From Prosthecobacter debontii (GTDB lineage: Bacteria; Verrucomicrobiota; Verrucomicrobiia; Verrucomicrobiales; Akkermansiaceae), in contig CAMCXJ010000001.1 of assembly GCA_945883455.1 (NCBI GenBank), positions 1-55,238 of the forward strand: a stretch of 55,238 nucleotides of DNA. The letters run 5' to 3'. The notes under the pieces were generated by a model. That model did not search any database. It had not been told where the DNA came from and was given only the letters and a program-made list of their open reading frames with translations. The position numbers were made by a program, and so were the translations under genes. Shown piece after piece: positions 8,090-54,333 of the stretch. Position 1 is the stretch's first letter. Every line of letters begins with the position of its first letter.

Positions 8090-8117
8090 TTGCGCATGTT
8101 CTAACTCAGGTTAGAAT
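8090..8117 (+). promoter_or_regulatory. Sigma70 promoter with overlapping palindromic operator of the AbrB-Doc module
   Basis: TTGCGC (8090)-16 nt-TAGAAT (8112) lies 6 nt before the ATG at 8124. The inverted repeat TTCTAAC-tcag-GTTAGAA (8099-8116) overlaps the -10. Confidence 0.65.
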
Positions 8118-8123
8118 TAAAAC

Positions 8124-8752: not shown

Positions 8753-8785
8753 CGGTTCTCGCTTCACCATTTTTACATCCCCAAC

Positions 8786-24703: not shown

Positions 24704-25240
24704 GGTTTACCCGAGGGCGTGCTCGGCTCCCTGCAGGCGCTGGAGGCGATCAAGCTCCTCCTCGGCATCGGCGATCCGCCGCTGGGGAAAATCCTGATCT
24801 ACGATGCCCTTCGTACTTCCTTCCGATCCCTGAAACTGCCGCACGATCCCGCTTGCCGCCTCTGCGGGAAAAATCCCACGATCACTTCCGTTTCCAATCC
24901 AGAAACCCACGCCAATCACTCCTGCGTAATCCTCGACCCCGCCATGCAAACCATCACCCCCGCCGAACTCAAAGCCCGCCTCGACTCTGGGAGCCTCAAC
25001 GCCCTTCTCATCGATGTCCGCGAAAAGGAGGAATGGGAGATCGACCACATCCCGCAAGCCAAGCTGATCCCGCTCCAGACCATCCCCGCCCATGCGGACG
25101 CCTTGCCGAAGGATTCCGAGATCATCATTCACTGCAAGGCCGGCATGCGCTCCGCCCGCGCCTGCGGATACCTCATGTCCCTCGGCTTCGAGAACGTAAC
25201 CAACGCCACCGGCGGCATGGATGCGTTCCGGAAGCTTTGA
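24704..25240 (+). pseudogene. moeB: 5'-truncated MoeB/MoeZ (ThiF-family C-terminus plus an intact rhodanese domain)
   Basis: GVLGSLQALEAIKLLLGIG...DPACRLCG is the MoeB C-terminus. It is followed by the rhodanese motifs LIDVRE..EW...HIP and HCKAGMRS. The adenylation domain is absent, and the previous gene ends at 24703. Confidence 0.75.
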
Positions 25241-25251
25241 TAGCCCCGAGT

Positions 25252-26046
25252 TCATGGAAAAAACGCCCGCAGCGCCTCGACCACGCCGTATCCGCGGGAG
25301 GCGCGGGTGATCAGCCCGCCCCGGGCGGCGACGGTTTCCCGGATCGCACCCACGGCGTTGGCGGGGCAGGCAGCATAGCCCGAATGGGCGTCGGAAAGCA
25401 TCTCGATGTCGTTGTGGCTGTCGCCGGCGGCGAAGGTCTGCGCGGTTCCGAGGCCGTGCAGCCGCGCGACCTCCGTCAAAGTACTGCCTTTCTGGTAGTT
25501 CCGGTGGCCAAAGCGCAGGTAGATCGAGTTCCGTTGCCAACCGAGCTCTGGCACCTCCGCCATCATGGGCGCGATGTGAGCGACGATCCATTCCATCTCC
25601 TCCTCGGTGCGCGAGATCAACCCGGCGGGCTCGCCATCCATCTCGATGTATTGCGCGCCGGTGTGTTCCTCGACCTCATGGCGGATTTTTTTCAGCACCT
25701 TGCGGCAGTTTTTGAAGAGTTTGTGGATATCCTTCTCGCAACGCTTGTTCCAATCCGTATGCGGCAGGAAGCGTCCGAAGTCGTTCGGGAAATGGATCTC
25801 GCGCTCGCGGGCGACCACCCAATCCGGCAGGAAAGGAAACCGGCTTTCGATCAGACCTTCCACGACATGCGGCATCGAGCGGCCAGTATTGATGCCCCAC
25901 ACCGCGCCCCGCGTTTCGCGCAGGCGGCGGATCTCCTCGAAAAACTCGCCCGGCACCGGCGGAGTCCCGGCGGGATCATGCAGTGTCCCGTCGAAATCGA
26001 AGGAAAGGATCAGGTTCGGCTGCGGGCAGGCGTCGAGGGTTCTCAC
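25252..26046 (-). CDS. HAD-IIB family hydrolase
   Basis: DFDGTL, NTGR, KG and GDSHNDIEML. Confidence 0.88.
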   Translation of the reverse strand: MRTLDACPQPNLILSFDFDGTLHDPAGTPPVPGEFFEEIRRLRETRGAVWGINTGRSMPHVVEGLIESRFPFLPDWVVAREREIHFPNDFGRFLPHTDWNKRCEKDIHKLFKNCRKVLKKIRHEVEEHTGAQYIEMDGEPAGLISRTEEEMEWIVAHIAPMMAEVPELGWQRNSIYLRFGHRNYQKGSTLTEVARLHGLGTAQTFAAGDSHNDIEMLSDAHSGYAACPANAVGAIRETVAARGGLITRASRGYGVVEALRAFFP

Positions 26047-26108
26047 GTAGCGAGGCTAGCGCATCTAGGACGATGGGCAAGGATCGTGGCGGCGCGCCAT
26101 TGCCAAAG

Positions 26109-26906
<798 letters not shown>

Positions 26907-36000: not shown

Positions 36001-39000
36001 GCCCCATTCGGTCTGGGCGACCAGGCTGCCGTTGCCTGCAGCCAGGCCTTTGAGTTTGGAGGAAAGGGCGGGCAGCAACACCGGTTTCCAATTCAAGCCG
36101 TCCGTCGAACGCAGGATGCCCGCTTCCCCCGCCGCGTAAAATGCGCCGCTGAACTCGACCATGGCGACGCGCGGCAGGTAATCGCGGCCTTCCGCCGGAT
36201 TGATCAGGTTTTCCGTCTGCGGGGGCACGGCGGAAATCCTCAGTTCGTCGCTGCCGACCAGCCCGGTGGGATCGGTGGCGCGCAACATGACCGTGTGGCC
36301 CGTCGGATTCTGTGCGCGGAAACGGAAGCGGAAATCGCCCGCTCCGGAAGTGCCGATCAATTGGCCGTCCACGTGGCATTCCAGGGTGATCGCGGCGCCT
36401 TCCGGATCAAAGGCCTTGCCTATGACATCCACGAAAGACCCGGCGATCACCGAACTGTCGTGCACGGGATAATCGGCCCGAACCACCGGCGCGGATCCAC
36501 CGGAAGGGGGCGCTCCCGCCTGCACGATCGCCCCGGTGCTGGTGTAAGCGACGAACTGGCCGAGTCCGGTGGCGAAACCTTGGATTCCCGGCGGCGTGTT
36601 GCCGGGGAACCAGGAAATCCCGTCATTGGAGAACCAGACCGAGCGGACGTTGCTGCTGTTCCTGACCAAGGCCACCAATGAGTTGTTGAACACGCTGAGC
36701 TGGAGAACCTCCCGGTTGGCGAGGTTGTTGGTCGCGTGCAGCGGAACCGCCGTCCAGGTGGCTCCGTTGTTGGTTGATTTCCAGCCCGTGACGTTTCCGC
36801 TGGAGAGGTTTTCGAGGCCGTAGAGGTCGTTGTTGAACTTCGTGATGAAACCCGGCTTCGCATTGCCGGCGGCCTTGGTCCAGGTGGTGCCGTTGTCGGA
36901 ATAATGAACGAAACCGGTTTGACCCGCAAATGCCGGTGCGGCGTTCGTGAGCAGCCAACGCGTGCCGAACCGGCTAACGGATGCGAGGGGATTGGCGGAA
37001 TTTGCTATGACCGGGACACCTGTTACCTCGGCCCATGACTGACCTCCATTGGTGCTGCGATGGAGTTTGTTGGCGGCGATGGCCAGCATATTCTGTCCAT
37101 CGGCGTCCAGCGAGGTCAGCGTCGGTGCCAGCCCGTTGGCGACGGAAGCCTCCGGCATCACATGCGGCAGGAAACCCCTGGCCGGGCCTGCCGCGCCGGA
37201 AGAGCGCTCGCCCCAGAACTGTCCGCCGCCGAAGCCTCTGAGCAAGTAGGCGGACACGGGGTTCGTCCTGTTGTCCCACACCCACGGCCGCATCTTCCGC
37301 CAATTGCTGCCGTCGCCTGAAACCATGGGCCTGAGGCTGCGCGTGCCGTTGCCGGAACTCCCGCTGTTGAGGACGAAGAAACGGTTGTCCTGGAACACGA
37401 TCTGGGTCGGCACCGCCACCGAGCCGCCGAAGGGCTTGAGGTCGGACGGTTCCGTGAGGCTGCCGATGAAACCGCGCTGCGTCCCGTAGAACACGCGGTT
37501 ATTGAAGACGGCGTAGGCGGAAATGACATCCCCGGTGGCGGGCTTGATGGAGGTCTGGGTGGCCGTCCACGGGCTCGCGCCCCATGTGACGGTAAGTCCG
37601 TCGAACTGCGCCCCGCCGAGCGAGACGAAGTTGCCGTTGTAATCGATGCCGCTGCCCCATGTGCTGCCGGTCTGCAAAGTCCAGTTGATCCCATCGTCCG
37701 AAACCCAGCCGTAACTGCCGAAGCCGCTGAACAGGACGAATTGCCCGTTCCAGCGCGTGGCTCCGCGCGTGCTGACGGCCGTTGTTCCGTTAGGTGGAAG
37801 ATTGATCTGTGTCCAGTCCGTGCCGTCCACGCTGCGCAAGGCGCGCGGGGGATTGTTGGTGGTGTTCACACCCGTCAGGATCATTCCGGAATCCATAACG
37901 AACGGCCCGTTGGCGGTCACCAACGCTGTCGCTCCGTTAAGGGTCGCCGGGGTCCATGCGATTCCATTCGTGGACGTGTAGATATCGCCGAAATTGGAAG
38001 TGCGACTGGCCCGCTGGCCGATGAAGCGGCCGTTGAAGACCTCGATGCGGGTGACGTGCTGTAGCGGCGTTACGTTGGGAAGACCGGTGAGCGCCTGCGG
38101 TACCGACCATGTGACGCCGTTGGTCGAAGTCACGGCGCGACCGTTGCCCGAAGAATCCATGCCGATACACAGCCACGTAGTGCCCAGTTTGTTGAGGGAC
38201 AACGCTTCGAATCCGCCGGGAAGCTTCCAGGTGCTCCACTCGAGACCGTCGGTGCTAACAAGAATCTTGTCACCGGCAACCGCATGGAGCTTGCCGTCGA
38301 TCACCTTCATGTCCGTGACCGCGAGGCCGGGAATTTCATCCAGGCGCCATTGCCATGAGTCGAACGGGGAGGTCACCAACGACACCCGGATGGTGGCGGT
38401 CGCGGTGCCCGCCGGGTTTGTCACCCGGCACTCGTAGGTGCCAGCGCTGGCGTTCGTGAGGTTGGAGAACGAGAGCTTCGGCGTGCTCGCGTTTTCGATC
38501 AGTACGCCGCTGCGCCGCCATTGATAGGTGAGCGGCAGCGAGCCGCTGGCTTCGGCGATCAGTTCCACACTTGAGCCTGTAACCGCCGAGAGATCGGGGG
38601 ATTTCCAGACGATGGCGGGAGCGATGAGCTTTTCAGTCAGCTTCGCGGTGCGGCTGGTCACGCTGCCGAAGCTGTTGGAAACCTCGACGTGGTAGTCATC
38701 GAACGAGCCGAGGGTGAGCGGGTCGAGCACCAGGGTGCTTTCCCATGCGCCGGGCAGGGCTTCGCCTTCCTTGAACCACTGGTAGCGCAGCGGCGGCGTG
38801 CCTGCGGCGCCCACGCTGAAGACGGCGCGTCCGCCAAGCGGGATTTCCAGATCGGCCGGCTCGCTGGTGATCACCGGAGGCCCAGGGCGCGTGCCGCGCA
38901 GGACGAACGCGCCGGGCAGGCCGCCCATGGCGGTGTCCACCGCAATGTGGTAGGTGACGCCCTCGACCGCGTCGAAGTCCACCCGGCTCCAGCGCAGGAG

Positions 39001-41337
39001 CGCGTTGACGTCGTCGTTGGCGCCGATGGTGGTGAAGCCCGCCGGATTGAGCGGATCCCCGGTATAGACGGCGACCACCGTATCGGTCTCGCTGCCCTCC
39101 GTGTTCAGGCTGATGTTTCCGGAAAACGGGGCCGTCCAGCGGTACCAGACGCTGTGTCCTGCGCCTACGCCGGCATGCGGGGCGGCGATCTCAAACGGCT
39201 GCGCGGTCGCGCCCCGGTTCGATCCGGCGGTTTCGAACGATTCGCCGGTGAGAACGAGGGGGCTGCTCACGAGGTCGTTTCCGGAAACGAGCTCAAGTTG
39301 CAGGGTGAAAGGTTCTCCGAACTGGCTGCTGCTCGCCGTGACGATACGGTAGTGTTGTCCCGCCTTCGCCAGGAAGCGGCAGACGGTCTGCTTCACCCCC
39401 GGGTTCTGCGGGGAATCGTAGACCACGCTGAGCGAGTTTCGGGATTGGCCGCTGTAAACGACGACACGTTGTCCCCAGTAGGCCGAGCTTGCCGTAAAGG
39501 TGGCGAAGCCGTCGTAGGGAGCTTGCCATGCGAACCACAGCGTGCGTTTCTCCGCCGCCAAAGAGAAGCGGTTCTCGTCAGGCTCCCGGGTGGCGTCCCG
39601 GTTGTGGCCGCTCCATGTCACGAAATTTCCCGCAAGCGTGAACGGCTGGTCGAACATGTCATTGTATGGCTGCGTGACCACGCCGGAGAGAAGGCCATGG
39701 AGGTTGAGCCGCCCGCCGGTGGAGACCTTGCCGTTGAGCGAGGTCAGCCTGTCCGCAGAGCTGTAGAGCCTTCCGATCAGGCGGTCCGCGCCTTCCCCGG
39801 GAAACTGGGCGCGGGCGAGCGCGAGGGCGCCGCTTACGTGGGGAGCCGCCATCGAGGTGCCTTGCAGGAAACGGTAGTCCGCATCCCCGCCGCGGTAGCT
39901 CGACCAGATCTGCCAGCCGGGTGCGGCGATGTCCACCGAGTTGCGGCCATAGCAGGAGAAGCCTGTCAGGACATCGCTGGCATTGCTGGCGGCCACCGCC
40001 ACGATGTTGGGCACATCGTAGCTCGACGGGTAATGTGGCCGCGAATCGTTGTTTGTCCCGGAGTTTCCGGCCGCCGCGACAAACGGAATGTCGGCATTTG
40101 CACAGGCGGCGATCGCGTTCCGCAAGGCCTGGCTGTATCCGCCGCCGCCCCAGCTCGCGCTGATGATGTGCGCGCCGTTCAAGCGCGAGTAATCGATCAC
40201 CTTGATGCCGTCGGAAGTGGTGCCGCCGTTCGGCCCGAGGAAACGGCCGGCCATCAGCTGCACGTTCCAGGCCACGCCGGTCATGCCGATATTGTTGTTG
40301 CCCCTCGCCCCGATGGTGCCCGCGCAATGGGTGCCGTGGCCTTGGTCGTCGTCCGGGTTGCCGTTGTTCTCGACGGCATTGTAGCCGAAAACATCATCGA
40401 CCACCCCGTTGCCGTCGTTGTCGATGCCGTCGCCGGCTGTTTCCCCGGAGTTCCGCCACATGTTCGGCGCGAGATCCCGGTGGGTGAAGCGGATCCCCGT
40501 ATCGGTCACCGACACCACCACCTCGCCCGCATCGGTACGGATGTCCCATGCGGCCGGCGCGTCGATGTCGGCTCCGGCCTTGTATCCGCTCACGCCGCCG
40601 CGGTTGAGAAGCCCCCAAAGCTTGTTGCCGGTGTAATCCGGATCGTTTGGCTCCAGGCTCGGCCAGACGAGGTAATCCGGCTCCGCAAACTCAACAAGCC
40701 CCTCCAGCGCTGCGATCCGCAGCGGGAGTTCGTCGGTCTGGTCGATGCGCGCGGCGAAGGAAAGCAGCATGCCGTTTTCGCCCACCGCATCACGCGGCTT
40801 GAAACCTTCCGCCCGGATCCGCTTTTCGAGTTCCTCCGGATCGACGCCGGGCCGCGGCTCCACCAGCAGGTGATCGGCCACCATCACCAGGCGCGAATCC
40901 ATGGTTCCGGTTTTGCCGGACCATGTTTCCACCACCCGCAGCCATGGGTATTTGAAAATTTCCGTCCGATAGATCGCGACCCTTTCACGGTTGCCCACCG
41001 CATCCGGGTCGGTCCACCTCTCGCGGACAAGTCGTGAGCCTGCGATCAGCGGATCGGACGGATGTTGTGGCAGGTCTGCCATCGGCTCCGCGGCCGCCGG
41101 TGCAGGGCTTTCGGATGACGGTGGCGTGGCTATCACCGGATCGGTGCCAGCGGATTGCGCCAGCCGGATGTCCGCCGCATCGCCGTCGCGCGTGGCGCGG
41201 GTTTGCCAAGTGACCTCATCCGGGTTCGGTTTGCCGGCGGATGTTCCGGAAAACTCCAGGCAAACCCACAGTCCCAACAAACCGCAGAGCAGAAGGAGGA
41301 AAACTGCAAACCGGTTGAAATTTGGAAATCTCAGCAT
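33100..41337 (-). CDS. Giant multidomain S8 (subtilisin) serine peptidase
   Basis: Catalytic triad motifs VTDTG, HGTHCAG and GTSMAAPHV. Then two PPC-like 'ND.F...N..AT..P.E' domains, two Ig domains (YQW), many Asp-box S.DG..W repeats, a CARDB-like domain, two InlB-B-like repeats (F.GW.G) and a C-terminal DADGDG domain. The start is placed at ATG 41337. Confidence 0.9.
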   Translation of the reverse strand: MLRFPNFNRFAVFLLLLCGLLGLWVCLEFSGTSAGKPNPDEVTWQTRATRDGDAADIRLAQSAGTDPVIATPPSSESPAPAAAEPMADLPQHPSDPLIAGSRLVRERWTDPDAVGNRERVAIYRTEIFKYPWLRVVETWSGKTGTMDSRLVMVADHLLVEPRPGVDPEELEKRIRAEGFKPRDAVGENGMLLSFAARIDQTDELPLRIAALEGLVEFAEPDYLVWPSLEPNDPDYTGNKLWGLLNRGGVSGYKAGADIDAPAAWDIRTDAGEVVVSVTDTGIRFTHRDLAPNMWRNSGETAGDGIDNDGNGVVDDVFGYNAVENNGNPDDDQGHGTHCAGTIGARGNNNIGMTGVAWNVQLMAGRFLGPNGGTTSDGIKVIDYSRLNGAHIISASWGGGGYSQALRNAIAACANADIPFVAAAGNSGTNNDSRPHYPSSYDVPNIVAVAASNASDVLTGFSCYGRNSVDIAAPGWQIWSSYRGGDADYRFLQGTSMAAPHVSGALALARAQFPGEGADRLIGRLYSSADRLTSLNGKVSTGGRLNLHGLLSGVVTQPYNDMFDQPFTLAGNFVTWSGHNRDATREPDENRFSLAAEKRTLWFAWQAPYDGFATFTASSAYWGQRVVVYSGQSRNSLSVVYDSPQNPGVKQTVCRFLAKAGQHYRIVTASSSQFGEPFTLQLELVSGNDLVSSPLVLTGESFETAGSNRGATAQPFEIAAPHAGVGAGHSVWYRWTAPFSGNISLNTEGSETDTVVAVYTGDPLNPAGFTTIGANDDVNALLRWSRVDFDAVEGVTYHIAVDTAMGGLPGAFVLRGTRPGPPVITSEPADLEIPLGGRAVFSVGAAGTPPLRYQWFKEGEALPGAWESTLVLDPLTLGSFDDYHVEVSNSFGSVTSRTAKLTEKLIAPAIVWKSPDLSAVTGSSVELIAEASGSLPLTYQWRRSGVLIENASTPKLSFSNLTNASAGTYECRVTNPAGTATATIRVSLVTSPFDSWQWRLDEIPGLAVTDMKVIDGKLHAVAGDKILVSTDGLEWSTWKLPGGFEALSLNKLGTTWLCIGMDSSGNGRAVTSTNGVTWSVPQALTGLPNVTPLQHVTRIEVFNGRFIGQRASRTSNFGDIYTSTNGIAWTPATLNGATALVTANGPFVMDSGMILTGVNTTNNPPRALRSVDGTDWTQINLPPNGTTAVSTRGATRWNGQFVLFSGFGSYGWVSDDGINWTLQTGSTWGSGIDYNGNFVSLGGAQFDGLTVTWGASPWTATQTSIKPATGDVISAYAVFNNRVFYGTQRGFIGSLTEPSDLKPFGGSVAVPTQIVFQDNRFFVLNSGSSGNGTRSLRPMVSGDGSNWRKMRPWVWDNRTNPVSAYLLRGFGGGQFWGERSSGAAGPARGFLPHVMPEASVANGLAPTLTSLDADGQNMLAIAANKLHRSTNGGQSWAEVTGVPVIANSANPLASVSRFGTRWLLTNAAPAFAGQTGFVHYSDNGTTWTKAAGNAKPGFITKFNNDLYGLENLSSGNVTGWKSTNNGATWTAVPLHATNNLANREVLQLSVFNNSLVALVRNSSNVRSVWFSNDGISWFPGNTPPGIQGFATGLGQFVAYTSTGAIVQAGAPPSGGSAPVVRADYPVHDSSVIAGSFVDVIGKAFDPEGAAITLECHVDGQLIGTSGAGDFRFRFRAQNPTGHTVMLRATDPTGLVGSDELRISAVPPQTENLINPAEGRDYLPRVAMVEFSGAFYAAGEAGILRSTDGLNWKPVLLPALSSKLKGLAAGNGSLVAQTEWGILYSTRDGVNWSQVGPEIYAGYWINQPVIFSGGRFLIIQQIAGQQAINYQTSFNGIDWTSAVIYTSGRQATIGDNGIIVSVHENAWTGDKAVWSADGGNNWTAIPGIERAGSQNHSFAMAYGGGVFLIAASDGRVWRSADGKSWAAAENLPTATAPGVTVRYANGRFFVGSTADLLYSSSAAIGSAWQALAPAVKSDSVIHALGRFIARGQSGMAWSEDGITWRDATGGPTMAIGTRFAANGERALVIDSNGAAWSSADGLVWRQDFAGISGSAITAQQVGQQMASLGSNIILVGTNGMLLTSADNGGTWLPATSDGQAIPANWNFNRVQVSNGVALATAVIGNTAERLMLRSVNGTEWQRASALDTLRIADVASDGAGKWLAVGTGAAIRSSTDGGLTWQEVTGPSMFSARAVVWFNNQWLLFGATSSSSSAPSRCWTSPDGTTWTDRGANGLQYPGNDFFRTEGHGRLVVWNRTDKPVITSDGITWQPFTGYQTWVGNSLYWVTPRSTGFLLATPFISAQAPVQMFSGAPDGQTWSEISKLQTDTIWATMFNDRLFLFAPGRVVEWTGTDLELELAPPVAATLGVGDVVQSPAMIRNLGGGEVGGLMDIDGWLSSDGFFGDGNDVYLGRIQVDVPPTASGGQRAVNLSFELPGNVRPGDSRLIVLLDPEDRFQDKNRANNMSISSGAAAIIPQHRLELLAIGNGSVSADQNAEYYPHGARVAMVANAGKGARFTGWGGDAVGSLGATLVVMDSDKTVAANFIATAALTVFTRGGGSVLQPSDDGIYTAGTMAELTAAPLPGWTFSGWSGALTGNEPAKSLEMNTSKVVTARFSMGFDAWRNHVFSETDRADATISGPQADADGDGVENWREWLRGSHPKNRAEHGQGAMRLEGNRITMIYTRLENMPAGHSVRSSASFDLNDWLVPVDERVVASSDGVETIEASVDTTGRHSAFLRIGDTQPNE

Positions 41338-41563
41338 GAGCCAATCCTGCCAGCATGAGGGCAAGCGGCAAGGCGATTCATGTCCGACTACCCGTACGAT
41401 AGTCCCTTAGGGTTTCTTGATTTTCCTCACACATGTCGTTCCCGGCGGCCACATGCCATCTATGTCATGGCCGCCTGGCGCGTAGCCAATTCGATCGGGA
41501 TCATCTGCGCCGGTTTCTCCCTTTTCGTTTCCCATGAAGCGCCGGGCGGTGTTTCATCGAGGC

Positions 41564-43605: not shown

Positions 43606-43926
43606 ATGAAAGCCACTTTTGATATTCCCGATGATCTTTACCGACAGGTAAAGACTCGGAGCGCGATGGAAGGGCGTCCGCTGCGTTCGGTGGCCGTGGA
43701 GCTTTTCCAAAATTGGCTTTCGGGCAGCCATCACGAGAATATGCCCATTACAAATCACGTGCCTGCTGACCACGCGCCGACACGCTTCGATAGCGCCCCT
43801 TGGAGGGGGATCATCCGCCCTTACGTCAAGCCCGGCATGAGCCATGATCTCGATGAAATGAAAGAGTCCATCTCTCTTGGCTGGAGCAAGGAAGCCGCAG
43901 CCAAACTCAAACCCTCGGGAGTCTGA
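43606..43926 (+). CDS. Ribbon-helix-helix antitoxin (VapB-like)
   Basis: MKATFDIPDDLYRQVKTRSAMEGRPLR is an RHH signature; it sits 2 nt upstream of a PIN gene. Confidence 0.75.
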   Translation: MKATFDIPDDLYRQVKTRSAMEGRPLRSVAVELFQNWLSGSHHENMPITNHVPADHAPTRFDSAPWRGIIRPYVKPGMSHDLDEMKESISLGWSKEAAAKLKPSGV

Positions 43927-43928
43927 CG

Positions 43929-44333
43929 ATGGAATCATACCATCTGGACACTTCCGTGGTCATGCGCCTGTTGGTGCAGGAGCCAGCGAATCAATACACC
44001 CGTGCCGCAGGCTTTCTGGAGGAAAAGCTCGTGGCGGGAGCCAGCGCCTTTGTCTGCGATTTGACTCTGGCTGAAGCCTATTTCGCCTTGCAGTCCTTCT
44101 ATGGAGTTCCCAAGGCAAAAGCCCTCGAATTGCTGGCTGGATTCATCAACACCCCCGGGATTATCCCATCGAGCCATGCCCGCTCGATTCTTGCGCTGCC
44201 CAATCTCGCGTCAGCCAAACCCGGTTTTGCGGATCGTTTGATCCATGGCTCCGCCGTCACCGCTGGTCAGCGCTTGGTTACTTTTGAGAAAGCTGCCAGG
44301 AACCTGGCTGGGACGATTGTCCTTGGGGTTTGA
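43929..44333 (+). CDS. PIN-domain (VapC-like) toxin
   Basis: LDTSVVMR, LAEAY, FADRLI and LVTFE acidic PIN pattern. Confidence 0.85.
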   Translation: MESYHLDTSVVMRLLVQEPANQYTRAAGFLEEKLVAGASAFVCDLTLAEAYFALQSFYGVPKAKALELLAGFINTPGIIPSSHARSILALPNLASAKPGFADRLIHGSAVTAGQRLVTFEKAARNLAGTIVLGV

Positions 44334-44418
44334 GGAACCACCTCAAGAAAATAAATAAGCTTGTCCAAGGTGATGCGGTGATCGGTGTGCTCAATTTGGT
44401 TCCACACGAAAACCCACC

Positions 44419-45261
44419 CTACCAAGCCACAAAAGCCCCCCATTCCAGCACGGATCCTTCCCGCCATGCGAGGCGTTGGCCGAGTGAGGTGGCGAAGCTT
44501 TCCAATAGCGCGGCGGGGACTCCCTGAGCCAAGAGTTGGTCATGGTTCGACTCGATCTGTGAGCGCATGCGGCGGAAGTTTTCGTGGAGATGCGGTGTCC
44601 GGTTGATGTGTTCGGTTTTCGTGAAACCGGCTGCTGTTAGATCGCGGAGATGATCTTGGGCGGTGCTTAGCCTGGTGATGGTGTTCACGTTGCTGAAGAC
44701 CTTGGCCTCGTGGGTCGGTGCGGTTTCGGAAAGCAGGATGTCGGAGAAAACCAAGACGCCGCCGGGGCGGAGGACGCGCCGGATTTCGCGGAGCGCGGCG
44801 GGCTTGTCGGTGGCGTGGCACAGCGCCTCTTGGCTCCATGCGAGATCGAATTTTCCGCTCCAATCTTCCGGGAGTTTCTCGAACGATCCCGTCCATGTCC
44901 GGATCTGATCGTGTATGCCGAGTTCGGTGGCGAGGGTTTCGTTCTCGCGGTGGTGGTGTGCGCAGAGATCGACGCAGGTGACGGTGGCGGCGGTTTGTTG
45001 CGCGAGAAAATGCGCCGAGCCTCCGGGACCCGAACCGAGGTCGATGATTTGCTTTGGCGGAAATGTTCCGGATTTTCGCAGCGCGATTTCCAGAAGTCGG
45101 CGCGTGGCGTTTTCCGTGGCCTGCCGCATCGATGTACTAGAATCTTCGTAGATGCCGTAGTGGATGACAGGTGCGCCATCGCCCATGACAGTGCGGTAGA
45201 AGGCGGTGCCGACCCCGGCGGAGTATTGTGTGAGGATGCCGCGGTGGTGGTCGGTGGTCAT
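44419..45261 (-). CDS. SAM-dependent methyltransferase, sarcosine/dimethylglycine N-methyltransferase-like
   Basis: FY..VMG....IHYGIY, motif I IIDLGSGPGG, FDLAWSQEALCH, RVLRPGGVLVFSD and C-terminal LEWGAF. Confidence 0.8.
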   Translation of the reverse strand: MTTDHHRGILTQYSAGVGTAFYRTVMGDGAPVIHYGIYEDSSTSMRQATENATRRLLEIALRKSGTFPPKQIIDLGSGPGGSAHFLAQQTAATVTCVDLCAHHHRENETLATELGIHDQIRTWTGSFEKLPEDWSGKFDLAWSQEALCHATDKPAALREIRRVLRPGGVLVFSDILLSETAPTHEAKVFSNVNTITRLSTAQDHLRDLTAAGFTKTEHINRTPHLHENFRRMRSQIESNHDQLLAQGVPAALLESFATSLGQRLAWREGSVLEWGAFVAW

Positions 45262-46922
45262 GTGGGGATTTTCTTGAGCGGGATGCGGCCGAGAACGCTG
45301 TTTTCCAAGAGGATCATTTCGTCGCGGTGGAGGAAGGTTTTCGTGCGGCGAACGGTGACGGCGGCGATGGGTTCGTCAAAGCGGAAAAGCGGCAGGGCGG
45401 GTTCGACGAGCGGGCAGATGTCGGGTGCGAGGTCTTCGCCGGGGAAATGCGGCCAGCGGAGGATGGGGCGGAGACGATGGTCAGCGATCATGCGGTTCAT
45501 GCCTTGGAATACATCATGAAAGGGAGCGGCGGCGGCTGGCATTTCCTCCCACACGGGAGGTGGTGCGGGGAGTGCGATTTTTTCCGCATCATTCATCAGG
45601 CCGAATAGGAAATCGCGATCCTCGCGGTGGATGGTCAGCCCCCAGACGCCGGTGCGTGCGAAGGCGCGGTCTTGCGGGATCGCGGGGTCGAGGCCGGGGT
45701 GCGCGCCGAGGATCATGAGATGGGTGTGGATGTCGGTAAGCGCGGTGTCGTGGGGGGAAAGCTTGGGCACGGGGAACGCGAAGGTTTTTCCGGAAACCGT
45801 TTCCACGGTGTAGGAATACATCCGCATCAGCGGCGTGTCCCACCATGCCATGAGGTGATCCGCCGCGTCGGCGAGCTTGCTTTTCGCGCCGGAGTTCCCT
45901 TCCGCGAGGATCCCGCGCCGCAGCCATGCGATCCAGCACGCCGCTGCCGGAATCGCGATCACACAGGCGGCTACGAGCTCTATTTGAAAAACTTCCGAAG
46001 TGTCGTGGCAAAGGATGAAACCGAGCACGGCGAGGTGGTTCACGACATATTGGTAGGAGCAAAGGCCGGTGAGCGCGAAGACCGCGAGATGAAACAGGAT
46101 CGTCGCGCCAAGCAACAAGGCGGCGAACCGCGCATCGGCCAGAAAAAACAGCCACGCCATTTCCAAAACCCACGCGCCGCCGCAGATCGAGACGCGATGC
46201 ATTGCCATCCAGTGCGCCTGTTTCATCACGACCTCCCGGCTCCTGCCGAACTTCCAGCCGCGCAACCAAGCGTTCGCTGTGAGGCACTCGACACGGTTTT
46301 CCGAAATCCACGACCACCAGCGAGAGCCGAGCGCGGATTTCGCCAACGCGTGGTTCACGTAGGTGGATGCTTGGAATCCTAGCAGCGCTGCGAGCGCGAT
46401 TTCGCCGAAGTTTTCCCAATCCTCTCCCGCGATGCACAGCCCTCCGAACAGCGCGAGCGCGGCGGCGACGAGGCTGAGCGAGGCGCGGACGAATTCGAAG
46501 CCGAGGAGGTTCGAGTAGCCCGGCCCGAGCAGGAACGAGGCCACGGTGTATTGCAGGCAACCGCACGCGACGAGGCACGGATAGACGAAGGCCGGTGAGA
46601 AATAAACGCCCACGACCAGCGCGAAAACGACCAGCCGATCCATGATGAACATGGCGCAGCCGAAGCGCCCGATGGCACCCAGCGCGAGCAAAGCGGCGAG
46701 CATCGCGGACATGACTTGTAGTGCTGGAAATTTATCCCACGACAATCCCACCACTGGGAAAACGAAAGCGAGATGCGCGATCCACAGCAGCGGACGGCTC
46801 AGCAGGGTGAGGATGGCGCTGCTTGCGAGAAATTTTCCGGAAGTCCCGTTCGTCCAGCACATCCGGTAGAGACCCAGCGATGCCGCACGACCCAAGAAGA
46901 ACAGCAGGAGAAAGGCGGTCAT
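45258..46922 (-). CDS. Polytopic membrane protein (HTTM-like N-terminal domain, soluble C-terminal domain)
   Basis: Multiple hydrophobic segments over the first ~330 aa, with YVNHALAK and LFHLAVFALTG motifs. ATGA overlaps occur at both ends (46919-46922 and 45258-45261). Confidence 0.65.
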   Translation of the reverse strand: MTAFLLLFFLGRAASLGLYRMCWTNGTSGKFLASSAILTLLSRPLLWIAHLAFVFPVVGLSWDKFPALQVMSAMLAALLALGAIGRFGCAMFIMDRLVVFALVVGVYFSPAFVYPCLVACGCLQYTVASFLLGPGYSNLLGFEFVRASLSLVAAALALFGGLCIAGEDWENFGEIALAALLGFQASTYVNHALAKSALGSRWWSWISENRVECLTANAWLRGWKFGRSREVVMKQAHWMAMHRVSICGGAWVLEMAWLFFLADARFAALLLGATILFHLAVFALTGLCSYQYVVNHLAVLGFILCHDTSEVFQIELVAACVIAIPAAACWIAWLRRGILAEGNSGAKSKLADAADHLMAWWDTPLMRMYSYTVETVSGKTFAFPVPKLSPHDTALTDIHTHLMILGAHPGLDPAIPQDRAFARTGVWGLTIHREDRDFLFGLMNDAEKIALPAPPPVWEEMPAAAAPFHDVFQGMNRMIADHRLRPILRWPHFPGEDLAPDICPLVEPALPLFRFDEPIAAVTVRRTKTFLHRDEMILLENSVLGRIPLKKIPT

Positions 46923-48076
46923 GATTTCGCTCCCCGGCACCAAGGCGATGGTTCAAGGCCCGCCTCGTTGCATTTTTCCAACAGCACATCGCCCAAGCAA
47001 TCCGGCAGGCAGGTCTCAATGAGGAAGCGCGAGGTGTCCGGTGTGAGCGAGATGCGCAGGCCGGAGGAGTTCCGCGAAAGCAGGATCGCGTATCCCGGCA
47101 GGCCAGTGCCGAAGTCCGTTCCGGTCACGGCATGGGGCACAAGGTTGAGCTGGAGCGCGTGGCTCTTCCAGACCAGAGGTCGCCCGCGCGATTCGGCGAG
47201 CTTGATGCGTCGGTGGGTGTCTGCGATGCGTTGAAAGCCCGCTCGTGTGGCCGTGGCTTTGAGTTGCTTGGTGAGTTCGTCGGCGCGGTTCGCGAAATGG
47301 AGATAACAGCCGACATTGCCGGTGTAGGTCGCGGGGATGCCGTTCAGTCCTCGCGGATCGCACCACAGCGCGACTTCCGGGAAATGCGATTCCAGCGCCG
47401 CGCAAAGCCATGCCGCCAGTCTCAGCCGTGAGTCGAGCAGTGTTGTGGCTTGGAAATGCCCGCGCACGTTTTCCAAAGGGATCGCAAAGAGGGTGGGGGA
47501 GGAACGCGCCAGAGAATCCTCTTGTGTCGCGCCCTCCGCCTCACGGTATCCGTGCGGAGCTTTGTCCTCGCCATCGAGTTTCGTGCCGAAAGCATGGCAC
47601 CGCTCGTGGAAAAGCGCCGGAGTTGCGACGCCTCGCCTCGCCGCCGTGCACTCGTTGATGAAAAGCGCCAGTCCGGTGCCATCCACCGCCGCGTGCGAAA
47701 CACGGATGCCCAGCACGCTGAGATCCGTTTCCTGGAAACGCGTCCAACGCGCCGCAAAAAGCGTATCGGCGCGGCCTTCCGGGATGAATGTGGCGGACTG
47801 GCTGGCGAGCGCCATTTCCTCCAGATTGCGAATCCCCATCGCTCCCGGTAACTCCACTGTTTCCAAAGCGAACACGCCCACCGATGGCACGATGCGCATC
47901 CCCTCCAGCTTTCCGATCAGGTGGGGAAACGCGCCCAGCCCTCTCTCCAGCGCCGCCGCACAATGCTCTGCCGCGAGCTCACCCCGGTATCCCATCACCA
48001 GCTCGATGTCTGTGGGCAACAGGTCGTCCACTGACAAATCCAGCGGTTCGAAGTCCGTTGTCGCGCTGCGGGGCAT
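46919..48076 (-). CDS. BAHD-type (CoA-dependent Transferase family) acyltransferase
   Basis: N-terminal LSVDD and LERGLGAFPHLIGKL, catalytic SHAAVDG (HxxxD), DPRGL..IPATYTGN and DFGTG (cf. DFGWG). Confidence 0.75.
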   Translation of the reverse strand: MPRSATTDFEPLDLSVDDLLPTDIELVMGYRGELAAEHCAAALERGLGAFPHLIGKLEGMRIVPSVGVFALETVELPGAMGIRNLEEMALASQSATFIPEGRADTLFAARWTRFQETDLSVLGIRVSHAAVDGTGLALFINECTAARRGVATPALFHERCHAFGTKLDGEDKAPHGYREAEGATQEDSLARSSPTLFAIPLENVRGHFQATTLLDSRLRLAAWLCAALESHFPEVALWCDPRGLNGIPATYTGNVGCYLHFANRADELTKQLKATATRAGFQRIADTHRRIKLAESRGRPLVWKSHALQLNLVPHAVTGTDFGTGLPGYAILLSRNSSGLRISLTPDTSRFLIETCLPDCLGDVLLEKCNEAGLEPSPWCRGAKS

Positions 48077-48135
48077 GACAATGATTTATCCACCGACGCT
48101 TGTGGTGTCGATAGGCAAGCAGGTTCCAGCTAACC

Positions 48136-51066: not shown

Positions 51067-51195
51067 GATGCATCTGAAGCTATCTTCCACCACCCGCCGC
51101 GCAACCCTCAAAATCGCCGCGTTATGGAGTCCCATGTCGGGTTCCTACACTAGGGACGAGAAGAATTCGAACCACGGATGAACAAGACTCTAACC

Positions 51196-51489
51196 ATGAA
51201 CATTGTCGAGACGGATATCGAAATCTCCGCCGATGGAAGCGTGAAGCTGCTTTCACCCCTGCCTGCTTGGCTCAGGCCGGGGCGCGCCCATGCGGTGATG
51301 ACCTTTACAGCATTGGAGGACAGCAGTGCCAGAACCAAACGGCAGATGCCGGTCGCGACGCCCGAAATGCTCGCTAAACGTGTGGCTGCGTTTGAAGGAC
51401 TGCGCGAGCTGGGAGGGCTGGGCGACATGATTCCCGACCCGCTGGCGTGGCAGCGCGAAATGAGAGAGGAAAGCCCGCTTCATCACTGA
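51196..51489 (+). CDS. Small hypothetical protein, antitoxin-like
   Basis: N-terminal beta-strand DNA-binding-like segment. The C-terminal IPDPLAWQREMREE is typical of antitoxins preceding PIN toxins. An alternative start is at 51178. Confidence 0.55.
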   Translation: MNIVETDIEISADGSVKLLSPLPAWLRPGRAHAVMTFTALEDSSARTKRQMPVATPEMLAKRVAAFEGLRELGGLGDMIPDPLAWQREMREESPLHH

Positions 51490-51953
51490 AGCAATGCCAT
51501 TAACTCATCGGAAATCCAGAAGCCTGCGATGTCGCGAAGGTCTTGTGCGATGCCCGCCGGATCGCTGACAACGCCGCGTCTGCGGGCTTCGAGAAGAATG
51601 CCCACCAAGCCTGTGCAGGTAAGGCCGAGGCGCTTCGCGGCTTCACGACCCCGGCGTTCATCCATCAAAAGCACATCGGCAGAGCATTCGCGTGCGAGCA
51701 CGATGGCTTCGGATTCACCTGCGCCGAGGTCTTGGCGTAGCAGATGCACCAGCGGCCTGTCTTTGACCGTCTGCTGTTCAATCCAGGTTGCCGCCAAGAC
51801 TTCGGTCACACCTGCTTTCCCGGGATGGCTTGTCACGACCTCCTGCCAAACGGCATCGGGGATGATGAGTTTTCCAAACAGGTCGTGCAACAAATCCAGC
51901 CTGCCAATCCTGCACAACGCGATCAATGGTGATGAGTCAGCGACGACGATCAT
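51483..51953 (-). CDS. DUF3368-family PIN-domain protein (toxin)
   Basis: VVADSSPLIAL, IPDAVWQE, LGAGESEAI, LLMDERRGR and GLVGIL. Confidence 0.9.
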   Translation of the reverse strand: MIVVADSSPLIALCRIGRLDLLHDLFGKLIIPDAVWQEVVTSHPGKAGVTEVLAATWIEQQTVKDRPLVHLLRQDLGAGESEAIVLARECSADVLLMDERRGREAAKRLGLTCTGLVGILLEARRRGVVSDPAGIAQDLRDIAGFWISDELMALLQ

Positions 51954-51959
51954 GATGTG

Positions 51960-52214
51960 TTAGCGTGGCAAGGAGGCAAGAACGGCAGCGTCTTCGAGAG
52001 CATCAGCCACATCGTAATGGGGGCCCATTTTACGGCTCGCGAGGTGGAATTGAAAAACGCCCACCGGCATGAGAGCGAATTCCGCCGCCTTGCCCAGCGA
52101 AAGCCGATCCAGCCGGAACAGCGAAATGGCCAGCTCAAGCCGGACGTCGTCCAATGTCATTCGCGCGCTTGCCAGCGCTTCGGCAGGAATGTCGAGACTG
52201 AGTGTCGCGTTCAT
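51960..52214 (-). CDS. UPF0175 family antitoxin-like protein
   Basis: RLELAISLF...LSLGKAAEFA. The start is ATG 52214, 6 nt after TTGAAT-17-GATATT. Confidence 0.88.
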   Translation of the reverse strand: MNATLSLDIPAEALASARMTLDDVRLELAISLFRLDRLSLGKAAEFALMPVGVFQFHLASRKMGPHYDVADALEDAAVLASLPR

Positions 52215-52368
52215 GGCGGTAATATCGCGTCCGGGTGATTTCAATTCAATCACATTCTCTGGAAGGAAAACCTGCAAGTCGCTCTACGATCAGATGAAAA
52301 TCCGGCAGCGCAAAGACTCGTTCGTAAAAGCCCCAAACATAGCAAAAGCACGCCTGGGCAACATGAAC

Positions 52369-54333
52369 TCAGCTTTCGAAATACGTGTATCCGCCGAGAC
52401 CGTCGCGGTAGAGATCCATGATTTCCTTGCGCTCCTTGGGCGAGATGCGGCCGTCGTTGACGGCTTTTTCCGCGAAGTTCCGGAACTTGGAGACGAGTTC
52501 CTTGGGGTCGAACTCCACGTAGGTGAGTACGTCGGCCACGGTGTCGCCTTCCACCTCGTGGGTGTAGACGGGCTTGCCCTTTTCAAGGTGGACGCCGACG
52601 ACGTTGGTGTCGCCGAGGAGGTTGTGGAGGTCGCCGAGGGTTTCCTGGTAGGCGCCGACGAGGAAGACGCCGAGGTAATAGGGTTCGTCCGGCTTGAAAT
52701 CGTGGAGATGGAGGACTTTCGCAACATCTTCCTTATCGATGAAGCGGTCGATCTTGCCATCGCAATCGCAGGTGATGTCGGCGATGACGGCGCGGTGCTT
52801 GGGACGTTCGTCAAGGCGGTGGATGGGCATGACGGGGAAAAGCTGGTCGATGGCCCAGGAGTCGGGGAGGGATTGGAACAGCGAGAAGTTTCCGTAGTAG
52901 AAATCGGCGAGGCCGAGGGAGAGTTCGACGAGATCCTCGGGCACGTCGTCCATGTCGGAGATCATGTTCGAGATGCGGGTGAGGATGTGCCAATACCATG
53001 CCTCGGCGAGGCCGCGCTCGCGGAGGGTGGCGGCGCCGTAAATGAACATGGCGCGCACCTGGTCGCGGTAATAGACGGCGTCGTTGAGGGATTCCTGGAG
53101 GTTCTTGCGGCTCAGGGTCTTGTTGACGTGAAATAGGTTGGTGAGGTTCTGCGGGGCTTTTTCCGGCATCACTGGCTCCTTGTCGGTGGTCTGCGCGGAG
53201 GTTACGTCGAGGATGTTGAAAACGAGGACAGAGTAGTAGGAAACCACGGCGCGGCCGGACTCGGAGATGAGGTTCGGGTGTTTTACTCCGACCTTGTCGC
53301 ACTGCTGGGCGATGACCTCGACGATGTCCGTGCAGTATTCCTGGATGGAGTAGTTGCAGGAGGAGGCGAAGTTCGTGTGCGAGCCGTCGTAGTCCACGGC
53401 CATGCCGCCGCCGATGTCGAGCACGCCCATCGGCGCGCCTTCCTTGACGAGATCGCAATACATGCGGACGGCCTCCGTCGCGCCCTCACGGATCGCGGCG
53501 ATGTTCGGGATCTGGCTGCCTTGGTGGTAGTGCAGCATTTTCAGGCAGGGCAGATGGCCGCTAGCCTTGAGGGAATCGACCACGTTGATGACCTGCGCGG
53601 CGTTCAGGCCGAACACGGATTTATCGCCCGCGGATTCCTGCCAGTGGCCGGAGCCTTTGGTGGAAAGGCGGATGCGGATGCCGAGGTTCGGTAGCACGCC
53701 GATGCGGCGGGAGCGCTCTAGGATGAGATCGAGCTCGCTGGGCATTTCCAAAACAAGCATGACCTTGAGCCCCATTTTCTGGGAATGCAGGGCGAGGTCG
53801 ATGAACTCCTCGTCCTTGTAGCCGTTGCAGACGATGTAGGCCTCGGTGTCGTGCATGTGCGCAAGCGCGGCGATCAGCTCGGGCTTCGATCCTGCCTCCA
53901 GACCGTAGTGATATTTTTTCCCGAACTCGGCGATCTCCTCGATGACCTGGCGCTGCTGGTTCACCTTGATCGGATACACGCCGCGGTATTGGCCGGTGTA
54001 TTTCGTGACCTTGATCGCCTCGCTGAAAGCCTCGTTGATCTCGGTGATGCGGGAGTGCAGCAGGTCGCGGAAACGCAGCAGCACGGGCAGGTGCGTGCCG
54101 CGATCGCGCAGGCCATCGATCACATCGTGGAGGGAAACATGCGCGTCGCCGTGCTTGTCAGCGAGCTTCACGGTCACGTGGCCGTCATCGTTCACTCCGA
54201 AAAATCCGTGCCCCCAAGTGTCCACGCCGTAGAGCTCCGAGGATTTCTCGGGAGTCCAAGATGGGCGGGGCTTGGGCTTCGTAAGCTTGGCGGGAAGAGC
54301 TGCGGTAGGCGGAATCACGCGCGAAACTTGCAC
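52369..54333 (-). CDS. speA: Biosynthetic arginine decarboxylase; the start may be the GTG at 54318
   Basis: PLP Lys in YPIKVNQ; LEAGSKPEL, HQGSQI, DIGGG, SESGRA, DITCDCDG and GAYQETLGDLHNL. Confidence 0.96.
   Translation of the reverse strand: MQVSRVIPPTAALPAKLTKPKPRPSWTPEKSSELYGVDTWGHGFFGVNDDGHVTVKLADKHGDAHVSLHDVIDGLRDRGTHLPVLLRFRDLLHSRITEINEAFSEAIKVTKYTGQYRGVYPIKVNQQRQVIEEIAEFGKKYHYGLEAGSKPELIAALAHMHDTEAYIVCNGYKDEEFIDLALHSQKMGLKVMLVLEMPSELDLILERSRRIGVLPNLGIRIRLSTKGSGHWQESAGDKSVFGLNAAQVINVVDSLKASGHLPCLKMLHYHQGSQIPNIAAIREGATEAVRMYCDLVKEGAPMGVLDIGGGMAVDYDGSHTNFASSCNYSIQEYCTDIVEVIAQQCDKVGVKHPNLISESGRAVVSYYSVLVFNILDVTSAQTTDKEPVMPEKAPQNLTNLFHVNKTLSRKNLQESLNDAVYYRDQVRAMFIYGAATLRERGLAEAWYWHILTRISNMISDMDDVPEDLVELSLGLADFYYGNFSLFQSLPDSWAIDQLFPVMPIHRLDERPKHRAVIADITCDCDGKIDRFIDKEDVAKVLHLHDFKPDEPYYLGVFLVGAYQETLGDLHNLLGDTNVVGVHLEKGKPVYTHEVEGDTVADVLTYVEFDPKELVSKFRNFAEKAVNDGRISPKERKEIMDLYRDGLGGYTYFES

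What the first reader, a model, noticed from the sequence alone, without database searches (positions are those of the whole stretch)
44419..48076. Translationally coupled operon of a plant-type BAHD acyltransferase, an HTTM-like membrane protein and an SDMT-like methyltransferase: candidate undescribed pathway
Seen: three minus-strand genes joined by ATGA start/stop overlaps at 46919-46922 and 45258-45261, with a promoter-like TCGACA-17-TAAATC just upstream of 48076. Gene 1 has the BAHD hallmarks in order: LSVDD, L..F PHLIGKL, catalytic HAAVDG, P.TYTGN and DFGTG. Gene 3 resembles sarcosine/dimethylglycine N-methyltransferases (IHYGIY, DLGSGPGG, WSQEALCH, WG.F end). Gene 2 is a multi-TM protein with 'Y..HALAK' and 'FHL....LTG' motifs recalling HTTM/vitamin-K-carboxylase-like domains. 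Established: BAHD enzymes (HxxxD plus DFGWG) are mainly plant and fungal acyl-CoA transferases for esters and amides of specialised metabolites. SDMT-type enzymes make N- or S-methylated onium compounds such as glycine betaine. Inference: a compact cassette making an acylated, N/S-methylated metabolite or lipid head group (betaine-lipid-like, or a surface modification), with the membrane protein as the transferring or exporting step. I know of no described system with this gene trio.
Basis: partly seen in the sequence, partly recalled or inferred. Interest (0 to 1): 0.85.

Follow-up and report, generated by a model that had tools for sequence, protein, structure and literature searches.

The report
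Vitamin-K-carboxylase-like lipid-making gene trio
A rare three-gene cassette shared by scattered bacteria encodes a plant-style acyltransferase, a distant relative of the human vitamin K-dependent carboxylase and a betaine-type methyltransferase, which together likely make an undescribed phosphorus-free membrane lipid.

Summary
The three coupled genes are real and travel as a unit: 18 of 18 genome loci found through the membrane gene have the acyltransferase directly upstream and the methyltransferase downstream, with differing flanks and congruent trees. Gene 1 has the BAHD fold (Z 28, NRPS C domains about 20) and HxxxD but no DFGWG; one clade fuses it to ACP, once with a fatty acyl-AMP ligase. 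Gene 2 has no Pfam match, but resembles vitamin K-dependent carboxylase (GGCX): Z 8.2-9.8, and the quinol-site residues K218, D263, W223, H287, M401 map to K195, E254, W205, H278, M358. It lacks the CO2/Glu-site residues, and its catalytic face is predicted cytoplasmic, opposite to GGCX. So it is likely an enzyme, not an exporter. Gene 3 is closest to sarcosine/dimethylglycine methyltransferase but far below that family's cut-off. Best reading (0.4): acylation, membrane tailoring and N-methylation give a betaine-type amphiphile. No product is shown. VKOR is mostly missing (1 of 10 genomes), and one lake strain has deleted parts of all three genes. Ten literature searches found no description.

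The parts
48083..48111 (-). Promoter-like TCGACA-17 nt-TAAATC, 6 nt before the first ATG (leaderless transcript if real)
   Evidence: sequence; not scored by scan; boxes kept in L001 only of 3 relatives
46919..48076 (-). Gene 1: BAHD-fold acyltransferase, 385 aa (P0001); catalytic SH128xxxD132G; degenerate DFGTG
   Evidence: ACP and FAAL-ACP fusions in relatives
47678..47698 (-). SHAAVDG catalytic motif (HxxxD)
   Evidence: SHxxxDG in 48 of 48 aligned homologues
46919..46922 (-). ATGA stop/start overlap gene 1/gene 2
   Evidence: similar overlaps in several relatives
45258..46922 (-). Gene 2: GGCX/HTTM-fold membrane enzyme, 554 aa (P0002), about 11 predicted TM helices plus a soluble C-terminal domain; no Pfam family
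46338..46340 (-). Lys195 codon: only residue invariant in 119 family and superfamily members; aligns with GGCX catalytic K218
46161..46163 (-). Glu254 codon: aligns with GGCX D263
   Evidence: 76 of 76
45849..45851 (-). Met358 codon: in register with GGCX M401 (quinone cap)
   Evidence: end registers 359/402, 361/404, 362/405 of structural alignments; 76 of 76
45258..45261 (-). ATGA stop/start overlap gene 2/gene 3
   Evidence: gene 2-gene 3 fusions P0025 and P0193
44419..45261 (-). Gene 3: class I SAM methyltransferase of the SDMT-like clade, 280 aa (P0003)

Best explanation
The three genes form a conserved, co-inherited cassette that likely builds a phosphorus-free, N-methylated (betaine-type) fatty-acyl amphiphile on the cytoplasmic face of the inner membrane. 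Step 1 (fold and catalytic motif shown, donor and acceptor inferred): the BAHD-fold enzyme moves a fatty acyl chain from acyl-ACP (or acyl-CoA) onto a small amine- or hydroxyl-bearing acceptor. Step 2 (homology and conserved residues shown, chemistry inferred): the GGCX-fold membrane protein, with its active site predicted to face the cytoplasm, binds menaquinone/menaquinol at the Lys195-Glu254 site and uses Lys195 as base to drive a C-H modification (oxygenation or desaturation, not carboxylation) of the membrane-bound intermediate; invariant acidic residues would hold a cationic head group. Step 3 (clade shown, substrate inferred): the SDMT-like enzyme methylates the head-group amine to a quaternary ammonium. 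The order of steps 2 and 3 is open. The product is accessory, not essential.
For: Gene order kept in 18 of 18 genome loci plus 2 of 5 metagenome loci, flanks differ; no conflicting supported splits among the three trees of 19 loci, distance correlations 0.86-0.91; gene 2-gene 3 fusions (P0025, P0193). Fatty donor: ACP-BAHD in L011, L015, P0191 and AMP-binding(FAAL-type)-ACP-BAHD in L017. BAHD fold: Foldseek E 7e-19, Z 28.5 versus PapA5 21.5 and C domains 20-21. GGCX likeness: the top 13 of 996 chains re-aligned are all GGCX, Z 8.2-9.8, 253-324 residues; HHalign to three HTTM proteins E 6.6e-5 puts Y188/K195/W205/E254/H278 on Y211/K218/W223/D263/H287. K218, D263, F286 and M401 contact vitamin K in GGCX (PMC12647623 passages); F277 64 of 76, M358 76 of 76. 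Viral GGCX-like epoxidases with D263E and N290I are proposed to act on lipids (PMC13486548 section 7); ours has E254 and V281. Positive-inside bias: about 21 K+R on the K195/C-domain side versus about 1.6 on the other. menD in 5 of 5 cassette genomes (4 over cut-off). E143, D397, E496, D497 76 of 76, D352 75 of 76. MT profile best hit SDMT 2o57 E 1.9e-34, full length, next 6.6e-25.
Against: No product, substrate or expression data. The four ACP fusions are one clade (support 0.99), so one event; no close FAAL match in 4 near-complete verrucomicrobial cassette genomes or in the own genome (66% complete). VKOR found in 1 of 10 cassette genomes searched (five of unknown completeness), awkward for a quinol-epoxide cycle. 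GGCX match is moderate: Z below 13 for a helical protein, rmsd 5-8 A, Foldseek E above 0.08; in the wide search GGCX ranked 4th (Z 6.4); the family-only profile gave HHalign E 0.11 and no PDB sequence hit. The acyltransferase stands without genes 2-3 in 3 of 5 metagenome loci (2 distinct). The SDMT-like clade also holds S-methyltransferases, and DsyG-like proteins from a planctomycete lacked the tested activity (PMC11306096 passages).
Confidence: 0.4

Rival explanations
1. Same acylated, methylated amphiphile, but gene 2 uses Lys195/Glu254/His278 as a plain general base with no quinol: a second acyl transfer, a dehydration or an epimerisation.
For: VKOR missing in 9 of 10 cassette genomes; HTTM-domain proteins also occur in linaridin clusters with unclear mechanism (PMC9927463 passages); N290 not kept.
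Against: The hydrophobic quinone-capping positions F277 and M358 are kept with the Lys-acid pair; hosts encode menD.
Confidence: 0.22
2. The product is a soluble small molecule (osmolyte, sulfonium or secondary metabolite) made with a short or aromatic acyl-CoA.
For: Most solved BAHDs matched use aromatic or short acyl-CoAs; SDMT/DsyG-type enzymes make betaine and DMSP precursors; most loci lack ACP and FAAL.
Against: A polytopic membrane enzyme is an obligate partner in 18 of 18 loci; FAAL-ACP fusion points to fatty acid; the window's organism is from lake water (12 runs hold half or more of the words, labelled lake water metagenome, 5 studies), so osmotic need is low (inference).
Confidence: 0.14
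3. Gene 2 is a true vitamin K-dependent carboxylase (MloH-like) that adds CO2 to the head group, giving a carboxylated betaine lipid.
For: Whole-length GGCX likeness including the soluble clamp region (64-549 on 60-490); bacterial MloH carboxylates a small-molecule intermediate (passages).
Against: No Phe at the F299 position (A/L/C/I and A/S/G/E at 288-289) and Asp at the position counted for Y395; the N159/H160 loop appears replaced by YSN (mapped by topology only); VKOR mostly absent.
Confidence: 0.1
4. Gene 2 is an exporter or flippase for the product.
For: About 11 TM helices; Foldseek's lowest E-values are MFS transporters (E 0.016-0.07).
Against: Those MFS rows have TM-score 0.10-0.14 and rmsd about 20 A and vanish from the top on re-alignment; invariant Lys in the GGCX catalytic position.
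Confidence: 0.05
5. The trio modifies a ribosomal peptide or protein (linaridin-like: HTTM protein plus N-methyltransferase plus acylation).
For: Linaridin clusters hold HTTM proteins; GGCX acts on peptides.
Against: Among 994 small ORFs within 2 kb of 21 cassettes, the eight most widely shared clusters cover only the four syntenic kin L004-L007; no fourth conserved gene.
Confidence: 0.04

Closest known systems
[quoted passage not shown]
   Same: Fold of TM domain plus clamp-like soluble domain; Lys/acid pair, Trp, Phe-His and Met of the vitamin K site
   Different: No PF05090 match; CO2/Glu-site residues not kept; catalytic face predicted cytoplasmic whereas GGCX's is lumenal; partnered with a BAHD enzyme and a methyltransferase, not a peptide or NRPS
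Giant-virus vitamin K epoxidase-desaturase modules (PMC13486548)
   Same: GGCX-like domain with Lys, D-to-E and hydrophobic residue at N290; proposed lipid role
   Different: Those are truncated, sit beside VKOR and a desaturase; ours keeps the soluble domain, has neither partner
Gut fatty-acid-amide clusters (OaaA/OaaACP/OaaC; PMC13310621)
   Same: Adenylation domain, ACP and CAT-fold transferase, as in locus L017
   Different: C domain with DHxxxDS there, BAHD-closer enzyme with SHxxxDG here; no membrane tailoring enzyme or methyltransferase described there in the part read
Trimethylornithine lipids of planctomycetes (OlsG; PMC7828035) and BtaAB betaine lipids (recalled)
   Same: Phosphorus-free amphiphile with triply methylated nitrogen is the predicted product type
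   Different: Enzymes are of other families; OlsB-type PF13444 and BtaA PF11899 each found in only 1 of 5 cassette genomes; homology to OlsG itself not tested
Plant and fungal BAHD acyltransferases (HCT, COSY, agmatine coumaroyltransferase, TRI101)
   Same: Fold and HxxxD
   Different: 12-20% identity, no DFGWG tryptophan, own LxRNSSGLR motif, ACP fusion in one clade
Sarcosine/dimethylglycine N-methyltransferase (2o57, NF041675), DsyG/DSYE
   Same: Best and full-length match for gene 3
   Different: 102 bits against a cut-off of 550; fused or coupled to a membrane enzyme

Membership tests
BAHD acyltransferase | Two-lobed CAT-like fold closer to BAHD than to NRPS C domains | tested here: met
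   Model pLDDT 92.6; Foldseek HCT E 6.8e-19; Z 28.5 versus 20-21.5
BAHD acyltransferase | HxxxD catalytic motif | tested here: met
   SHxxxDG in 48 of 48
BAHD acyltransferase | DFGWG motif | tested here: not met
   DFG in 32 of 48, NFG in 8, other in 8; Trp in none
BAHD acyltransferase | Pfam PF02458 above gathering score | tested here: inconclusive
   P0001 18.5 bits versus 22.7; 45 of 48 members match at E<=0.1; L011, L015, L017 score 40-49
BAHD acyltransferase | Acyl-CoA donor | not testable with these tools
   ACP fusions in one clade suggest acyl-ACP
NRPS condensation domain | HHxxxDG motif | tested here: not met
   Ser precedes the His in 48 of 48
HTTM / GGCX superfamily | Pfam PF05090 match | tested here: not met
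   No HTTM hit for P0002, for 76 of 76 family members or in the own genome
HTTM / GGCX superfamily | GGCX fold | tested here: inconclusive
   Top 13 rows all GGCX, Z 8.2-9.8, rmsd 5.3-8.4; Z 6.4 rank 4 in the wide search; below the helical-bundle caution level, so supportive only with the residue match
HTTM / GGCX superfamily | Catalytic Lys with Asp/Glu partner, Tyr-x6-Lys, Trp, Phe-His | tested here: met
   HHalign E 6.6e-5 read through the L031-GGCX alignment; K195 invariant in 119 of 119
Vitamin K-dependent carboxylase (GGCX/MloH) | CO2/Glu-site residues F299, Y395, N159/H160 | tested here: not met
   No Phe at 288-289; Asp352 at the counted Y395 position; H160 loop mapped by topology only
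Vitamin K-dependent carboxylase (GGCX/MloH) | Active site on lumenal/periplasmic face | tested here: not met
   Predicted cytoplasmic by K+R bias of about 21 to 1.6 and C-terminal SAM-methyltransferase fusions; prediction, not measurement
Vitamin K-dependent carboxylase (GGCX/MloH) | Quinol- and O2-dependent activity | not testable with these tools
   menD 5 of 5; VKOR 1 of 10
Sarcosine/dimethylglycine N-methyltransferase (NF041675) | Score above curated cut-off | tested here: not met
   101.9 bits versus 550; top family for 16 of 16 members, best E 7e-42
Sarcosine/dimethylglycine N-methyltransferase (NF041675) | Methylates sarcosine/dimethylglycine | not testable with these tools
   Needs assay
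Fatty-acid-amide clusters (Oaa type) | A domain plus ACP plus C domain with DHxxxDS | tested here: not met
   AMP-binding domain in 1 of 18 genome loci, ACP in 3 of 18; motif SHxxxDG
Linaridin RiPP cluster | Precursor peptide and further conserved Lin genes | tested here: not met
   No widely shared small ORF; no fourth conserved gene

The most novel reading that the evidence does not exclude
An undescribed, inverted (cytoplasm-facing) branch of the vitamin K-dependent carboxylase superfamily uses menaquinol chemistry to tailor a new class of phosphorus-free betaine lipid, assembled with a bacterial BAHD enzyme that takes acyl-ACP; the key membrane enzyme has also passed into diplonemid and choanoflagellate protists.
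Probability: 0.25. Interest if true: 0.9.

Novelty: new variant of a known kind. Interest (0 to 1): 0.7.

Why it matters
Few members of the GGCX/HTTM superfamily have a known reaction. This cassette gives one a fixed pair of partners whose chemistry is readable, so the reaction can be tested by expressing 3.7 kb and running lipidomics. If right it would add a new quinone-linked reaction, a new membrane lipid in aquatic Verrucomicrobiota and Planctomycetota, and a BAHD enzyme that uses acyl-ACP. It would also anchor a much larger unnamed family (865 clusters at E<=0.001) and its protist members.

Tried and rejected
Complex prediction of gene 2 with gene 3 gave no answer; not used either way. 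No RNA holder listed. Search for longer fused acyltransferases found none, weak evidence. No relatives in viral contigs; second-tier membrane protein P0207 had no plasmid match; plasmid matches to gene 3 were all under 60% identity with generic names. PDB sequence searches with P0001 alone and with the membrane profiles found nothing real. No earlier findings. Rejected: neighbours as pathway members (fabV and glycogen phosphorylase shared only with L001 and L008; hisB-hisH and pyrD-like only in L004-L007; arginine decarboxylase not seen among shared clusters), so the tempting agmatine link from the best PDB sequence hit has no genomic support. Rejected: replacement of BtaA or OlsB (each present in 1 of 5 cassette genomes; too few to test). 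Rejected: the 4-residue loop deletion in gene 2 as decay, since 10 of 115 homologues, the closest, share it. The careful IQ-TREE run finished only for gene 1; congruence rests on FastTree. A DGTA/DGCC link was considered (listing only) and has no support here. No tree with plant or fungal BAHD sequences was built, so origin is untested. Literature searches (open-access library only) listed no description of the trio. No supplements were read.
Full report
Observation. The window (contig C1 of a 2.03 Mb, 66% complete genome) carries three minus-strand ORFs of 385, 554 and 280 aa at 48076-46919, 46922-45258 and 45261-44419, coupled by ATGA overlaps. Third-position bias against two relatives shows coding constraint. 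Twelve runs from five studies, labelled lake water metagenome, hold half or more of the sampled words, and run X2 holds the stretch in one contig. The promoter-like string is present but unscored and kept in 1 of 3 relatives.

Conservation as a unit. A scan of GTDB species genomes with the membrane-protein alignment gave 18 loci: by record title 11 Verrucomicrobiota, 5 Planctomycetota, 1 Fibrobacterota and 1 Crocosphaera (a pattern-based lower bound). In 18 of 18 the acyltransferase lies directly upstream and the methyltransferase directly downstream on the same strand (in L010 the latter is cut by the contig end; L014 and L018 are near-identical). No fourth gene is shared beyond close kin. 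Trees of the three proteins from 19 loci show no conflicting split at support 0.9 or more, with distance correlations of 0.86-0.91 (L010 and L030 left out for truncation; shared descent alone would give this, so it shows co-inheritance, not function). Genes 2 and 3 are fused in P0025 and P0193. The cassette is rare: 7 of 301 family genomes, own included (all 7 with gene 2 adjacent; six are probably the genomes of L003-L008); 2 of 401 and 1 of 301 genomes around the planctomycete G746, counting G746 itself and one weak hit. Against strict linkage: scanning metagenomes with gene 1 gave 5 loci, 2 with the trio and 3 (2 distinct) with an intact gene 1 and no trace of genes 2-3 in the stored flank. 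In three runs of one study the dominant contig skips 279 nt across the gene 1/gene 2 junction and 217 nt covering the end of gene 3, so a natural strain has broken all three genes. The cassette is accessory.

Gene 1. Pfam PF02458 is below cut-off for P0001 but hits 45 of 48 homologues; the family profile finds 11 BAHD structures at E<=0.0032. SHxxxDG is in 48 of 48; DFG in 32 of 48, never followed by Trp. Atlas neighbours include Actinomycetota, Pseudomonadota, diatom, haptophyte and fungal clusters, so 'plant-type' describes the fold only. L011, L015 and P0191 carry an N-terminal ACP, and L017 an AMP-binding domain (FAAL-type by my reading of its motifs and the DIP2-like hit), ACP and transferase in one 1176-aa chain (the L015 ACP is in frame but has no standard start codon). 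These four form one clade: one fusion event. Four near-complete verrucomicrobial cassette genomes have only weak matches to the ligase, so their donor is inferred to be housekeeping acyl-ACP or acyl-CoA. The architecture recalls gut fatty-acid-amide clusters (PMC13310621, abstract and introduction read).

Gene 2. No Pfam family for P0002 or HTTM for any of 76 homologues. The profile search found 30 clusters at E<=1e-30 and 865 at E<=0.001. In a 119-sequence alignment spanning both tiers K195 is the only invariant residue, with Y188, W205, E254 and H278 near-invariant. The model (pLDDT 94.6) gave no significant Foldseek hit, but GGCX rows had probability up to 0.96; on re-alignment the top 13 of 996 chains were all GGCX (Z 8.2-9.8, rmsd 5.3-8.4, up to 324 residues including the soluble domain), while the wide search ranked GGCX 4th at Z 6.4. 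A bacterial HTTM protein (L031) aligns to human GGCX, and HHalign of the 119-sequence profile to three HTTM proteins (E 6.6e-5, probability 64) puts Y188, K195, W205, E254 and H278 on Y211, K218, W223, D263 and H287; weaker queries did not reach significance. End registers of four structural alignments place M358 on M401. In GGCX, K218, D263, F286 and M401 hold vitamin K, F299 holds CO2, and N159, H160 and Y395 hold the Glu (PMC12647623, passages). Gene 2 keeps the first set and not the second (Y395 and H160 positions by counting and topology, so inferred). Viral GGCX-like epoxidases show the same D-to-E and N-to-hydrophobic changes and are proposed to act on lipids (PMC13486548, passages and section 7). 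Lys+Arg counts over 76 sequences put the K195 loop, the invariant GYSNLLGxE loop and the C-terminal domain on one side with about 21 basic residues against about 1.6 (helix limits set by me from the model): a cytoplasmic face, in line with the methyltransferase fusions and opposite to lumenal GGCX. The second tier shows little bias. Hosts encode menD (5 of 5), but VKOR was found in 1 of 10.

Gene 3. Best match for 16 of 16 members is NF041675, far below cut-off; the profile aligns end to end with SDMT 2o57 (E 1.9e-34, next 6.6e-25). Related enzymes include S-methyltransferases, and homology mispredicted activity for a planctomycete DsyG-like protein (PMC11306096, passages). N-methylation is favoured, weakly, by the invariant acidic residues of gene 2.

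Mechanism. Shown: operon anatomy, co-inheritance, folds, conserved catalytic positions, fusions, dispensability. Inferred: fatty acyl transfer to a small acceptor, a Lys-driven and likely quinone-linked modification at the inner face of the membrane, and quaternising methylation, giving a phosphorus-free betaine-type amphiphile, analogous in product type to trimethylornithine lipids (PMC7828035, passages). I put this at 0.4; quinol-free base catalysis 0.22; soluble metabolite 0.14; carboxylase of the MloH type (passages) 0.1; exporter 0.05; peptide modification (PMC9927463, passages) 0.04.

Novelty. Each part belongs to a known superfamily, but gene 2 fails HTTM and carboxylase membership tests, gene 1 lacks DFGWG and gene 3 fails the SDMT cut-off. 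Ten searches of the open-access library (listings read) showed no description of the trio; subscription papers were not searchable. Homologues of gene 2 occur in three diplonemids and a choanoflagellate and form one clade nested among bacterial sequences; whether these protists have genes 1 and 3 was not tested. Verdict: a real, undescribed biosynthetic cassette; new variant of a known kind (aminolipid/fatty-amide cassette), interest 0.7.

Noticed in passing
window 44371-44589 and 46766-47046 (runs X8, X9, X11): A lake strain seen in three runs of one study carries two deletions (217 and 279 nt, with 9- and 12-nt repeats at the joints) that break all three genes: a natural knockout for comparison.
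   Followed up: partly
P0207-P0327; L041:8357-10153, L042:7715-9511: A large second tier of 520-570 aa GGCX-like membrane proteins with the same invariant Lys, no Pfam family and no acyltransferase or methyltransferase partner in the two loci read; there it lies divergent from a GT4 glycosyltransferase. Some are fused to PGA_cap or other C-terminal domains.
   Followed up: partly
P0197, P0200, P0202, P0328: Gene 2 homologues in Diplonema ambulator, Namystynia karyoxenos, Artemidia motanka and Acanthoeca spectabilis, one clade with P0198 of unknown source.
   Followed up: partly
L027, L028, L029: Intact gene 1 without genes 2-3; L028 and L029 keep the hisB-hisH-like upstream context of L004-L007, and in L027 it is followed by a zeta-toxin-like ORF.
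   Followed up: partly
L017:2812-15179: Crocosphaera sp. Alani8 cassette with FAAL-ACP fusion sits between a divergent 2-hydroxyacid dehydrogenase and a DUF3854 helicase, suggesting a mobile setting; GC 0.44 versus 0.41 in flanks.
   Followed up: partly
L043:6604-8075: A split HTTM-like pair (306 aa membrane protein plus 184 aa partner) with no Pfam hit at E<=0.0001.
   Followed up: no
window 33100-41364 (-): 2754-aa protein with subtilase S8, Ig-like and InlB-B-repeat-like domains.
   Followed up: no
window 43606-44333 (+) and 51178-52277: Small gene plus PIN-domain gene convergent on gene 3; further small toxin-antitoxin-like ORFs near 51178-52277, judged by eye only.
   Followed up: no
window 35-1018 and 52369-54333: Saccharopine-dehydrogenase-family gene and arginine decarboxylase (polyamine pathway, recalled) on the same contig; not shared neighbours of the cassette in other loci.
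   Followed up: partly
window 1122-2642, 6489-8006, 8117-8959, 24853-26112: ORFs of 280-506 aa with no Pfam hit at E<=0.0001; some may be shadows of genes on the other strand.
   Followed up: no
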